A DNA stretch of 63,434 bases, filler included, from Kipferlia bialata (taxonomy: Eukaryota): the NCBI GenBank assembly GCA_003568945.1. It is 7 parts of 7 records of this genome, joined end to end, with 100 filler letters (N's around TTAATTAATTAA, not from the genome) between each part and the next. Parts side by side here need not be neighbours in the genome. Positions count along the whole stretch, not along the records: positions 1 to 13,836 come from BDIP01000889.1; positions 13,937 to 27,769 come from BDIP01000890.1; positions 27,870 to 36,537 come from BDIP01000891.1; positions 36,638 to 50,450 come from BDIP01000892.1; positions 50,551 to 56,684 come from BDIP01000915.1; positions 56,785 to 61,874 come from BDIP01000941.1; 1 more part is not named here. The stretch is one strand, 5' to 3'. A program made the position numbers and the translations under genes. The notes under the pieces were generated by a model. The model was not told the origin of the DNA, searched no databases, and saw only the letters and a list, made by a program, of their open reading frames with translations. Shown here one piece after another: positions 52-61,147 of this stretch (the first letter of the stretch is position 1; each line of letters begins with the position of its first letter).

Positions 52-1762
52 GTGCCACGTGTTTGTTTGGCCTGCCCTACCCAGACAAGTACCTGGGTGA
101 GTCCCACTATATGTCTATATGAGTGTCTATGTGTGTATATGTGTGTATCCAGACATGTACCTGGGTGAGTAGGGACTTGAATATTCATGTATGTACATGT
201 ATATATATGTGGGTAGGACCTGACCCCAGTTGAGGGCACCACCACCACCACTGTAGTCCTGGACCAGTCGGTTGGGGAAACACTACTCAGTGACCTGGAG
301 GACATACACAAGCAGATGCAGGTGGGGGTGGCATCTCTTCTTCCTCTCTCTCTCTCTCTTTCCCCCTCACCCCCAGTCCTATTTTGAGGACATAGACTCT
401 GATATCCGCACCCTCAGCTGTGCACTACTCAACCAGGTGGGTGTGGACTAACCTGATCTGTACTGTGTATACTACATACTTTACACGTATATACTTTACA
501 CGTATATGATCGATGATGGGCACAGGTGGGTGGTATACTCTCTCTCTCTCTCTCTCTCCCTGTCCCCCTCCCCCTCTCTCTCCTCCTCCCATACCCCCTC
601 CCCCCAGGACACCCCTGACACATGCACCTCAGCTGATGATCTGTCCTGTCCACACGACATATACATGGTGTTCGAGGTATGCATATACACCACAAAGACT
701 TGTATGTCCGAGTTGACTTACCACAGGACACTGACTATCTCGCGTACTCCGCCCTGCCCTACATAGCCCAGGGCCCCAATGTGGACCTCTCCTACCTCCT
801 TGCCATGAGTGAATATGCAATGGCACCAATCACAGCACACACAACAGGTGGGACTCAACACATATATGTATCTGCTCATTCCCATATTTGAGTTAGTCAA
901 TAGAAATATCCTATATACTGACCCCCCAGGCACCCACTACTGCAGTGTGTCCAGTGACCCCTTTGCTGTGCCAGTCCCAGGTGAGGGGTATATATAAGTA
1001 TGTATATATGAATATCAATATTCATATGTATGCGAATCATAACACTACTAGTACTAGTATCTCTCCACTCTCCTAGTCCATCCGACCCCCACCCACCCCA
1101 GGCCTGTCCACCTCGTACCGCAATGCCTATGTCAAGGACGGCATTGACATGGGGACATACGCAGACGGCACAGAGGTGGGTTATAGCATATATAATATGT
1201 ATACTACAGTACCACTCTCTTCCATCCTTACCTCCAGGTCTCCTTCCACCGGTGTGCCCTGCCCGTTGAGTATACAACCATGGACATAGTGGTGCTGATA
1301 CTGGTGGTGATAGGCACAGTGGTCGGTGAGTCACACTCTTCCCTTCACTATACCAGTGCATTACACCCTCTCACCCCCAGTCATAGCTGCCTTCTTCGGA
1401 TTAGTATGTTGCTGTGTGGGTCGGGGACACAAGACTCTCGACCTGAGGCCCACCACATTTGCCAACCCACTTGCCAGGTGGGTGTGACAATGTGTGTTAC
1501 TAGCTGTGACAATGTAACCACTGTTTTCTGTGAGTGTCTCATCTATCAGGCAACAGGAGATCGAGAGAGAGAGACAGGCACATATGCACAAGAGGGCAGC
1601 CAAGCTCCAAAAGAAGGGGCAGAAGGGTACGTGTCGTTGTGTGTATTCGCTATTTGTATGTCCCCCACGCACATATATATCTCTTACCATGCAGGCCAGT
1701 CTAAGAAGGCCCCCTCCAAGGGGCCCAGTCCCATGATGCCCCAGGGCATGGCTGTGGTGTAG
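52..1762 (+). CDS. Single-pass membrane protein, ~11 exons, 5' partial
   Basis: GT-AG exons join into a plausible frame: ...SYFEDIDSDIRTLSCALLNQ|DTPDTCTSADDLSCPHDIYMVFE|DTDYLAYSALPY...|VSFHRCALPVEYTTMDIVVLILVVIGTVV|VIAAFFGLVCCCVG (TM helix)...|GQSKKAPSKGPSPMMPQGMAVV* (stop 1760-1762). Confidence 0.7.
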
Positions 1763-2339
1763 AGGCAGATACGCTGTGTATGCCTCACCAAATAAATACG
1801 TGTTGGATCTTTGTAGATGCCGAGATAGGACACTATGCCTGGTCTGTGGTCTCCTGACATTGTTGGACATGTAACATTGTAGCCTCTTGGTCACTGGGGT
1901 TGGTGCTGCGAAATCCTGGTTGGTATATATATCACTAACCAATTGTGGCCCACTCCATGAATGGGAGATGTGACGAGTGATTGACCAACATGAAAGACAC
2001 TGTGTCTTAGACACAGACGCTGAAGGAATCGAGTGAACAATCCGTCATTTGTTTTGGTTGCTCCACGGCTCTAACCTCTCTTTCACTCTCTTCTGTATCG
2101 AACCACAACCCAGTAGTGTTAGAGAGCAGAAGGAGGTTAGCTGAACACTTGTCAGTTCTGTTGCGTAGTGAGGAGAGAGAGAGAGGGGACGTAACAGTGG
2201 ATGTCCCTGCAGGAGTGTTCGTTCAAGGACCCTGACTGGTACCCTCTTAGCAAGACAGGTAGACATGAATGGCCAGATACCCACGATATGACCTCTCTGT
2301 AGTCATAATGTATATCTCGTCCACTCCTCAGAACCCCCC

Positions 2340-2376
<37 letters not shown>

Positions 2377-58468: not shown

Positions 58469-59222
58469 ATAAACAAGAACCACATATGCACCAAATTCTA
58501 TTGACACACGATGTTTCTCGCTCAAGAAGAAGGTCCGGCTACAATAGGTCAAGTAGATCGAGTAGACCACCTGAATAGAATACCCTATGGTCATTCATAG
58601 TTAATACACTAAGAATCATGGACAAATATTGTTGATTTTGTGGTTAGAAGGTCCAAATATATTCGATATGTAACATGACTCAAGCAGTTCCCTCACCTGT
58701 AACTCCTAGTCTACACAACTGTGACCTGGTTTGACGAAGACAGTGTAGGCCTATTCATTAGAGACTCTAATATAGAGTGCATAGACCAGGTTCCAACAAA
58801 CGTCTTCTGATTCTCCGATGCTCAATCAGAGATTGTGAAACGCTTGTCAATCATTAGCTCTCTCCTCTTGAGATCTTACTGATTCACTGAACATAGCAAG
58901 TCAGGTACACTCGTTCTTGATGTGTACTTACGCATAGGGTTGGATGGACTCGTCCTAACTGAGATAATATTGGTGTCCCCCCCCCACCCCCCGCACCCCC
59001 GCCCACACACACCCACCATGCATGAGTGTATCTTTTCTCCTTACTCTCTCTTCACCCCCCCCCCCTCTCACTCTCCTTGTCCACTGAGAGTTTGATGATA
59101 CTCTGTTGGTATCCTTGGCTCGGTCTGTTATGCATTTACTATTCTATAATTCTATTGTGCAGCAGATGATTCTATTCTATCTCTATATTTTGAAGCCCTA
59201 GTTCTGCTACTGACTTCCAGTA

Positions 59223-61147
59223 ATGAAAGAGACTATACTCCAAGAGGTTGTGGTGTTTGATGGCCCACCCGTGGAGGCGGAAGCCATTGCAGAAGTCGAT
59301 ACACCGGCTGAGCTTGGCGTAAATGGCCCTCTGCTACCCCTAGGCCGGGGGGAGGTATGTATAGAAACAGTAACAGTGCACTATATATATGTATATAGGT
59401 ATGTTGCTATCTGCTACCCCTAGTCAGGCCCTGACTCAGGGGGGGGGTATGTACAAATCAAAAGTAATAGTGCTCTATATATGTGAGTATATATATGCGT
59501 CTATAGCTAACTGCTACCCCTAGGCACGGGAGTGGTGTGTGTATACAACAAGACGAATATACATATGTAGAGAATATACTCTTGGTACTGTCTTGGAATT
59601 CAATCCTCCCATGGGACATCATATAGACTCCACCTATACCACTCCTCTTTTACATGACATATGTGTCTCCTTGCTGACACTCACACTCATACTCAAACCC
59701 ATACTCATACTCACTCTCTCTCTCTCTCTCTCTCATACGCACACTCGTACTCATACACATTCTCTCCCTAATATCACAGGCCGCCTGGGTTGGCTTTATA
59801 CACCACGACACGGTAGAGGGCTGGTTCCAACCCGTTGTCATCATGTACTCCATAACATCTGCAGGAGATGTCAGAGAGACACATGTTGATATGCCCGAGA
59901 CACTTAGAGAGGCCGTTGGGGGTGACATACTGGGGTGTGTGTGGGGAGAAGACATCTGGGTGTTAGGGACAGAGACTGGGAGCTACTACGAGAACCCTGT
60001 AGTGTATGTACTCAATACTACGTCCCTGGAATGGAGGAGGGTACCCATTAAGGGTGGGTTTGGTGACGTCAGAGGCCTGTACCATTCTAACAGAAGGGGC
60101 CACTTGTGGTATATAGAGGTAGGGGTGGACAAACCTCGTTCCACGGAGGAGACATACGTACTTGACCTGCGCACTGGTACACTGTGCTATCCTGGCTTCA
60201 CAAGTACCCTTTCTAGTGTACCAGGCACTTCTATCTACAGTTATGGAGAGGGGGGCTTCCCTGCTGCTAAGTACTGGACCTCCAACGAGTCACTCTACAA
60301 GGCGGATGAGAGTGGAGCGGTGGAGCTGGAGTCTATCTGTCCAGAGTGTTGCAGGTGTAGTAACGGTGTAGCTCTAGATAGGTGAGTGATATACAAATAT
60401 GTGCCTTCGATGGGTATCACATTGATACGGCTTATGTTGGACACAACACATTCTACTCCAATAATATACCAGCCAGATGTAACTCACGATACAGACATGT
60501 TGCCTTCCTTGGGTGCCACTCTATTGAATACTACTGCCTCGTGTCCGGAGACTGGGTGAATTGTCCCCGAGTAGACGGGGCACATGATCCAGACGATCTT
60601 GATACTGTGAACCATGTGTGCTTAGTAGATACCGACGCAGTCCTGGCACTCACATCCAATGGGGATACATACGTGGATGCTTGGCTGGTCAAGCTCAGAG
60701 TGCCAGGTGTGTATTGTGTACATATATACGTACGTACAAACATTTACAAGCACTTCCATATACCAGAACTTCTATACATATATTATTATATACATACGTA
60801 CGTGGATGCATGGCTGGTAAAGCTCAGAGTGCCAGGTGGGAAATACCATAATATTCATGGTATACAGCTAGATTAACAGGGAGATACGTGCATGTGCAGG
60901 TGTTCCACAAGTGTATACTTCTCTAATCTATATATGACGCATTGCTAGTCAATGTCAATGTATGTAGTCATTGACTACTAGTCAATTCAAACTTTGAATT
61001 TCAAAGTGACTTTGACTCGTTTTCAGAGTTAGAGCCCAATATATACACCAAATATATAATATATCAATTATAGACACTCATGTCCCTGTTCCAAATCCCC
61101 TGTGTCTCATGTCAGGTGGAGATGATCCCGAGTCAGCTGGCAGATGA
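59223..61147 (+). CDS. Divergent Kelch-like beta-propeller protein, 4 exons
   Basis: MKETILQEVVVFDG...GRGE|AAWVGF...WGEDIWVLG...VYVLNTTSLEWRRV...TYVLDLRTG...|CNSRYRHVAFLG...YCLVSGDW...LRVP|GGDDPESAGR*. Confidence 0.6.

What the first reader, a model, noticed from the sequence alone, without database searches (positions are those of the whole stretch)
91..60835. Pervasive 'exon echo' architecture: introns built from repeated copies of their own splice junctions
Seen: in many intron-containing genes on most scaffolds, introns hold 1-3 extra copies of 15-50 nt of the adjacent exon with its splice site. Copies are spaced ~70-135 nt apart, about one ordinary intron length. Examples: 91/149; 5737/5846; 6455/6565/6655; 9771/9893/10014; 10313 x4; 12332 x3; 13306 x4; 14916 x4; 48525 x3; 49645 x4; 57525 x3; 60667/60796. 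Polarity is consistent in the arrays examined: exon-end+GT copies lie downstream of the complete exon, and AG+exon-start copies lie upstream. The exon-derived part stays recognisable while spacers decay into (TA)n/(GA)n. Established: tandem duplication across splice sites is a proposed but rarely documented route to intron or exon gain. Inference: here it acts genome-wide as a main mode of intron growth. I do not know of a description at this density.
Basis: partly seen in the sequence, partly recalled or inferred. Interest (0 to 1): 0.88.

Follow-up and report, generated by a model that had tools for sequence, protein, structure and literature searches.

The report
Exon-edge copies borrowed from diverged homologs
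In the free-living protist Kipferlia bialata over a third of the introns examined hold extra copies of the neighbouring exon edge with a good splice signal, a repeat type known from lancelets as "mirages", and the pattern of differences shows that the copies likely came from a diverged second copy of the same gene during DNA repair and are likely skipped by the splicing machinery.

Summary
Real, dense and partly known. The window is Kipferlia bialata. 44 of 118 introns hold copies of the adjacent exon edge, against 0 hits in 590 control pairings. Each copy adds about 100 nt, and the units make up 36% of intron DNA. Read-derived contigs span five arrays. Proteins on record leave out 45 of 45 copies. 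No spliced RNA could be examined. This is the amphioxus "mirage" kind; the scan met it before in sea urchins, a marine worm and another invertebrate. New here: copies differ from the real exon at 21% of fourfold sites but 4-5% of zerofold sites, beyond all 1800 neutral-copy simulations. The intron flanks are almost unalignable yet keep full-strength splice signals. Stop-codon edges are copied too. Best reading (0.5): out-of-register repair between diverged alleles or paralogs, in a lineage reported to lack NHEJ and Rad51A but keep Dmc1. Splicing likely picks the outer sites by exon definition. Polarity is geometric and intron gain is not shown.

The parts
2469..3407 (-). DUF975 gene (KIPB_004239), introns 3-5 (294, 274, 216 nt) with 5 exon-edge copies
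   Evidence: Pfam PF06161 match of residues 104-189 to profile 153-238 bridges two copy-bearing introns without net insertion
149..164 (+). 5'-type copy of the end of exon 52-96; could form a 12-nt in-frame mini-exon
4768..7211 (-). gene C (own model): 5 copies in 4 of 8 introns; 4858-4844 is a 15-nt in-frame mini-exon candidate with a branch-point acceptor
8184..13801 (+). KIPB_004241: 24 catalogued copies in 13 of 18 introns (up to 601 nt), all absent from the record protein; includes arrays 9770 x3, 10313 x4, 12330 x3, 13306 x4
   Evidence: contigs of run X1 span 8177-8683 and 8756-9919
8625..8889 (+). young secondary amplification (88-nt unit, 93% alike); the 44-nt stretch shared by two units has twice the read depth
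14359..16386 (+). RNase H-like gene (own model; weak Pfam hint, E=0.014): 7 copies in 4 of 4 introns, including 14910 x4
16351..16602 (+). copies of the last coding exon's end placed downstream of the stop codon, with no splice site; the nearer copy differs only at third codon positions
16841..21321 (-). gene matching KIPB_004609/KIPB_004243: 7 catalogued copies; intron 21150-20871 separates two coding copies of DPVCDT (candidate exon gain)
24513..25283 (+). RhoGEF-like gene (own model): 4 copies in introns 1-3
39519..39783 (-). single 31-nt exact copy of an exon end whose intron flank is unrelated
46872..50300 (-). gene of record protein P0008: 9 catalogued copies in introns 4-7, plus arrays 49641 x4 and 50055 upstream of the mapped part
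57005..58549 (+). gene Q (own model): 8 copies in 3 of 3 introns, plus a stop-codon-edge copy at 58517-58549
60665..60835 (+). 5'-type copy in a kelch-like gene (not in the catalogue)

Best explanation
The introns hold 16-56-nt copies of the adjacent exon edge with a splice signal of ordinary strength, and these copies were likely taken from a diverged homolog (another allele or a paralog) by out-of-register DNA repair and are likely spliced out silently. Shown: the copies, their density, their third-position-biased differences and their nearly unrelated intron flanks. Inferred origin: between diverged homologs only the exons still pair. A broken end pairs within an exon, is extended across the junction into the homolog's version of the intron (about 45-120 nt), and is then joined back 16-56 nt upstream in its own exon. 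Alternatively, breaks on two homologs are joined with that offset. The result is exon + homolog's intron edge + own exon edge + own intron. Later misaligned exchange between copy and real edge adds further units. Units that span one junction survive and stay recognisable. Units inside exons or across two junctions would be purged, and purely non-coding ones would be unrecognisable. Inferred splicing: the outermost sites are used, as expected if sites are paired across the shortest exon (exon definition) rather than across the shortest intron.
For: Mismatches by codon position 26/26/95 on about 640 sites each; 86 of 147 synonymous against 26% expected. Zerofold 48/930 against fourfold 50/250 with one copy per array (ratio 3.9, bootstrap 3.0-5.3); 56/1269 against 73/347 with all 70 copies. 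The bias holds for each base and outside CpG/TpA, for both copy types, and in record-based and own models. A neutral copy beside a constrained exon gives a median ratio of 1.6-1.9 and at most 3.5 in 1800 simulations. Copies differ from each other the same way (fourfold 20/90, zerofold 10/299). Identity falls from about 90% to near background within about 4 nt of GT. Spacer and core intron are alike in 4 of 69 pairs at p<0.01, where a 10%-diverged tandem duplicate would be detected every time. A faint similarity remains (p=0.01 against introns of the same gene), as for distant homologs. Stop-codon edges are copied with no splice site. Fornicates are reported to lack NHEJ and Rad51A and to hold two Dmc1 (PMC8516963 section 8); Dmc1 tolerates mismatches (abstract starts of PMC8682777 and PMC7809202). 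Silence: record proteins map uniquely and omit 45 of 45 copies. My short-intron ab initio model pulled many in (37 against 20 exons in KIPB_004241), while the published models used transcript hints (PMC5874029 section 7). DUF975 stays colinear with Pfam. The real site is stronger than the best copy in only 12 of 29 donors and 11 of 24 acceptors.
Against: No donor homolog was found. The one DNA run laid shows mostly full-depth contigs and no other letters over 2.5 kb (contigs drop variants), so the required 10-20% silent divergence between copies is inferred, not seen. Intron flanks look more diverged (about 35% plus indels) than fourfold sites (21%), so faster intron turnover is needed as well. 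The bias comes mainly from four genes (D, F, O, Q); DUF975 gives 7/105 against 3/26, which does not separate the models. The copy nearest the real exon is not reliably the most alike (6 more, 5 less, 5 ties). Spacers are poorer in G+C than whole introns (0.29 against 0.38-0.42), which was not compared like with like. No spliced RNA was seen, and record proteins are predictions. An earlier scan note (e1-9353532) reports another genome where the last of several donor copies is the one used.
Confidence: 0.5

Rival explanations
1. Classical mirages: same-chromatid tandem duplications of about 100 nt across one junction, after which the microsatellite-rich intron part turns over very fast and the exon part lags.
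For: Young units with alike spacers exist (9 of 19 spacer-spacer pairs at p<0.01). Narrow period. Faint spacer-core similarity. Fits the amphioxus description (PMC3087553).
Against: Cannot give a fourfold/zerofold ratio near 4-5: 0 of 1800 simulations reach 3.9. Exact copies of 26-38 nt sit beside unalignable flanks. No arrays in 6,683 nt of intergenic DNA.
Confidence: 0.2
2. The copies are, or long were, translated as alternative or extra mini-exons, so selection on protein keeps first and second codon positions. This would make the arrays a mass route to exon gain.
For: Third-position bias. Strong copy splice sites. A few in-frame candidates (153-164, 4858-4844, 8715-8729, 8803-8817, 24919-24939). 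A coding DPVCDT repeat across intron 21150-20871.
Against: Only 6 of 36 5'-type copies have an acceptor of 5 bits or more, and 2 of those are in frame, yet the 5'-type copies show the same bias. Only 6 of 36 3'-type copies have an internal acceptor in the real exon. Record proteins omit 45 of 45. Stop-edge copies have no splice site.
Confidence: 0.15
3. Insertion of new filler or of a small intron-like mobile element at staggered breaks, with the exon copy as a long target-site duplication.
For: Similarity stops at the splice site. Metamonads lack NHEJ, and alternative end joining is full in some and partial in others.
Against: A target-site duplication would start identical and diverge without codon bias. 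The best matches of the 72 spacers elsewhere in the window that I viewed were simple repeats. Spacer and core keep faint homology.
Confidence: 0.08
4. Assembly artefact: two haplotype bubbles placed head to tail.
For: Short-read assembly of a diploid (PMC5874029). Copy lengths fall in the k-mer range. Allele-like differences. Some record proteins recur on other scaffolds.
Against: Separately built contigs of run X1 run through 8177-8683 and 8756-9919 with no difference at depth 436-458, and a 44-nt stretch shared by two units has depth 900. Only 2.5 kb was tested, and the run may be the source sample.
Confidence: 0.04

Closest known systems
Amphioxus 'mirages' (Adh3, globins BflGb6/BflGb9, troponin C, PGBD5; PMC3087553, PMC3902484)
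   Same: Head-to-tail repeats across either exon-intron boundary, carrying splice signals, variable in copy number, reported not to disturb splicing, proposed as a route to intron gain.
   Different: There: a handful of loci in an exon-definition animal, with whole units 81-100% alike (BflGb6) and mechanism called unclear. Here: 37% of sampled introns in a short-intron protist, intron parts mostly unalignable, exon parts with a coding-type divergence pattern, and stop-codon edges copied too.
Human F7 IVS7 37-bp VNTR (PMC1557585)
   Same: Functional downstream 5' pseudo-sites stay silent and the most upstream donor is used.
   Different: One locus, donors only. Oriented scanning explains donors but not the use of the last acceptor seen here.
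[quoted passage not shown]
   Same: Duplication across an intron-exon boundary that inherits splice signals.
   Different: There a new intron results. Here the catalogued copies are absent from record proteins and lengthen existing introns; gain remains a possibility at a few sites.
Tandem duplications from aborted homologous recombination finished by end joining, or from joining offset breaks on two chromatids (recalled; no paper read here)
   Same: Short head-to-tail duplications as repair scars.
   Different: Usually copied from the sister chromatid, so identical. Here the template appears to be a diverged homolog.

Membership tests
mirage repeats | tandem copies spanning an exon-intron boundary, 5' or 3' | tested here: met
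mirage repeats | copies keep AG/GT splice signals | tested here: met
   GT/GC after 29 of 30 and AG before 29 of 32 edge-reaching hits; strengths
mirage repeats | normal mRNA unaffected (outer sites used) | tested here: inconclusive
   45 of 45 copies absent from predicted record proteins and Pfam colinearity for one gene; no spliced RNA seen
mirage repeats | minisatellite-like units alike over their whole length | tested here: inconclusive
   met for 9 of 19 spacer-spacer pairs, not for 65 of 69 spacer-core pairs
mirage repeats | copy-number polymorphism or instability | not testable with these tools
   one sample only; two metagenome scans empty
intron gain by tandem duplication | a new spliced intron or exon relative to orthologs | tested here: not met
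   no catalogued copy is used in the mapped record proteins; candidates lack RNA and orthologs
introner-like elements | families of similar intron sequences at unrelated sites | tested here: not met
   72 spacers against the 63-kb window: the top hits viewed were simple repeats; rest of genome not held
recursive (AG|GT) splice sites | copy junction reads AG|GT with a real acceptor | tested here: not met
   exons with a 3'-type copy start with GT in 4 of 24 (10 of 94 without); strong acceptor near 6 of 36 5'-type copies

The most novel reading that the evidence does not exclude
A Dmc1-only, NHEJ-less recombination system repeatedly repairs breaks from diverged alleles, leaves exon-edge scars in a third of introns and so builds about a third of intron DNA. 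Each array is then a stack of extinct allele edges. The reduced fornicate spliceosome (SF1 and U2AF35 not found in PMC6679479's table) ignores tens of thousands of full-strength decoy sites by pairing across exons although the basic intron is only about 80 nt. The same origin may explain mirages in polymorphic marine animals.
Probability: 0.3. Interest if true: 0.87.

Novelty: new variant of a known kind. Interest (0 to 1): 0.66.

Why it matters
The origin of mirage repeats has been called unclear (PMC3087553), and the papers I read describe them at a few loci. Here dozens per 60 kb allow statistics, and the statistics point to an inter-homolog origin that can be tested in any genome with mirages by one codon-position count. 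The arrays are also a natural splice-site competition experiment. Each offers a perfectly sized short intron that is apparently ignored, although short-intron protists are thought to use intron definition (PMC2397502). They also matter for annotation: ab initio predictors turn the copies into false mini-exons.

Tried and rejected
No whole genome was held, so nothing is genome-wide. No RNA holder was listed. Run X2, guessed to be RNA, gave 6 short partial matches and no spliced joint over 7860-10345: no evidence either way on expression. Read support was obtained for 2.5 kb only. Two metagenome scans (P0005, P0004) found no relative. Recursive AG|GT splicing as the general rule: rejected. Whole-exon duplication with one end decayed: disfavoured; copies cover 0.20-0.67 of the exon in all but one case, and echoed exons are frame-symmetric in 17 of 32 against 27 of 71. 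CpG or TpA hypermutation as the cause of the codon bias: rejected. Age order within arrays: no signal. Correlation of copy length and spacer length: negative for 5'-type (rho -0.47), absent for 3'-type, so not used. Half-depth stretches near two arrays may be heterozygosity or dropout beside poly-C; not used. A second look-up of earlier findings on the allele idea returned nothing, as did the look-up by place.
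Full report
Identity. The window is seven scaffold pieces joined by N-padded linkers. Single exons retrieved 100%-identical proteins of Kipferlia bialata, a free-living fornicate: KIPB_004241, DUF975 KIPB_004239 and KIPB_004609/004243. 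A fourth, P0008, came without a name. Its genome paper reports 51 Mb, 124,912 GT-AG introns, a short-read assembly and AUGUSTUS models with transcript hints (PMC5874029, passages and sections 7 and 12). The word 'duplicat' does not occur in its main text.

Observation. A diagonal scan found all 12 arrays listed, and many more. I built 15 gene models with 118 introns. 43 introns come from unique spliced mappings of record proteins, and 75 from my own models, which read open with the copies left out. The genes sent to the protein look-ups were chosen because they were rich in copies, so their rate (27 of 43) is biased upward; my own models give 17 of 75. Left out: four genes with unsure structure (42102-46411, 59223-60900) and arrays at gene or scaffold ends (7308, 7990, 13997, 21577, 49641, 50055). 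44 of 118 introns hold a copy, with 0 hits in 590 cross-gene controls. After hand correction of three arrays there are 36 donor-side and 36 acceptor-side units, together 7,702 of 21,416 intron nt, and median intron length rises by about 100 nt per unit. No array of this period lies in 6,683 nt of intergenic DNA or 13,731 nt of long-exon interior.

Real DNA. Contigs built from run X1 pass through 8177-8683 and 8756-9919 without a difference at depth 436-458. The 44-nt stretch shared by two young units has depth 900. This covers five arrays in 2.5 kb, and the run may be the source sample, so it argues against mis-assembly without replacing long reads.

Which sites are used. No spliced RNA was available. 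Record proteins omit all 45 catalogued copies in their genes and need introns of up to 676 nt. A simple short-intron predictor included many copies as mini-exons (37 against 20 exons in KIPB_004241, 16 against 8 in P0008), which suggests that transcript hints drove the exclusion (inference). In DUF975, residues 104-189 match profile positions 153-238 across two copy-bearing introns. Yet copy sites are good. Donor medians are 5.3 against 5.1 bits, acceptor medians 8.5 against 10.9 (any intronic AG -5.5), and the real site beats the best copy in 12 of 29 and 11 of 24 cases. The core between the innermost copies has ordinary intron length (median 89.5 against 85.5). Pairing across the shortest intron would pick the copies. 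Scanning would explain donors (PMC1557585, abstract) but not acceptors. Pairing across the shortest exon explains both. That is unexpected for a short-intron protist (PMC2397502, passages) whose spliceosome keeps 87 of 174 proteins, with U2AF65 and several SR proteins scored present and SF1 and U2AF35 absent (PMC6679479, passages and supplement file 10).

Origin. Identity is about 90% on the exon side and falls to near background within about 4 nt of GT. On the acceptor side it is only slightly above background beyond AG. Spacer and core intron are alike in 4 of 69 pairs at p<0.01, and in 1 of 26 where the copy is 95% or more identical; neighbouring spacers are alike in 9 of 19. A plain duplicate 10% diverged would always be detected. 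A faint similarity remains (p=0.01). Mismatches fall 26/26/95 on the three codon positions. In 52 arrays (70 copies; one array and one internally duplicated copy dropped, as were copies over 30% mismatched) fourfold sites differ by 20-21% and zerofold sites by 4.4-5.2%. The ratio is 3.9 (bootstrap 3.0-5.3) with one copy per array. A neutral copy beside a constrained exon gives at most about 2 in expectation and never reached 3.9 in 1800 simulations. Base composition and CpG/TpA context do not explain it. Translation as mini-exons does not explain it either, since 30 of 36 donor-side copies lack an acceptor. Ends of last exons are also copied behind the stop codon. At 16463 the four differences from 16351 are all at third positions. 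Low zerofold divergence, high fourfold divergence, saturated introns and intact splice signals are the signature of two homologous genes. I therefore infer that each unit joins pieces of two diverged homologs out of register, and that further units arise by misaligned exchange. Fornicates are reported to lack NHEJ and Rad51A and to hold two Dmc1 paralogs (PMC8516963, passages and section 8), and Dmc1 tolerates mismatches (search listing only: PMC8682777, PMC7809202). This makes the route plausible but does not show it. Aborted strand invasion with end joining and offset double breaks are recalled mechanisms; one search listed three papers, none read.

Against this reading. No donor allele or paralog was seen, and the strain looks largely homozygous in the 2.5 kb laid. 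Introns must also turn over faster than fourfold sites. Four genes carry most of the signal, and order within arrays is uninformative.

Known kind. An earlier scan note gave the name mirage, which I checked in PMC3087553 and PMC3902484 (passages). The original Adh3 paper was not read. The potato case (PMC4974935, passages) shows that such duplications can create an intron. Here only a few candidates exist (153-164, 4858-4844, 8715-8729, 8803-8817, 24919-24939, and the DPVCDT repeat around 21150-20871). Searches found no report of these repeats in Kipferlia, at genome scale, or with an inter-allelic origin; the library lacks most subscription journals. Earlier scan reports found dense mirages in several invertebrates, so density alone is not unique.

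Verdict. A confirmed, unusually dense variant of mirage repeats in a protist, with new quantitative evidence on their origin and a testable claim about splice-site choice. Interest 0.66.

Noticed in passing
window 7865-13801 and 16841-21321: Record proteins assigned to other scaffolds are letter-identical to these genes. P0002 (a dynein heavy chain record) ends with all of KIPB_004241; P0005 and P0006 equal the gene at 16841-21321; P0007 fuses it to a TM2-like gene across the N gap. Assembly redundancy, chimeric models or recent segmental duplication.
   Followed up: partly
window 43426-43760 and 44981-45340: Two nearby genes share a roughly 80%-alike 5' leader of about 140 nt up to a donor site, followed by weakly alike introns; both go on to coiled-coil-like ORFs. 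The same exon-conserved, intron-diverged pattern between paralogs.
   Followed up: partly
window 28574-36457 (-): Sacsin-like gene (PF25794 and HEPN) with two very long exons and no copies.
   Followed up: partly
window 48906 and 26416: Two GC-AG introns. The copy at 48844-48820 keeps the GC donor.
   Followed up: no
window 25001-25009 (+): Candidate 9-nt in-frame micro-exon with a strong GTAAGT donor.
   Followed up: no
whole window: The branch-point-like motif CT(C/G/A)AC sits 2-7 nt before the AG in 43 of 74 copy-free introns, like the fused branch point and acceptor of diplomonads (recalled).
   Followed up: partly
window 13997/14083: At the scaffold start both visible copies of an RNase H-like motif are probably copies of an exon lost in the gap. 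One reads K where the other has E (motif recalled).
   Followed up: no
window 53567-56623, 37491-39211, 39326-41299: Intron-rich genes almost free of copies (0 of 15, 0 of 7, 1 of 10), next to genes with most introns affected; the cause of the clustering is unexplained.
   Followed up: partly
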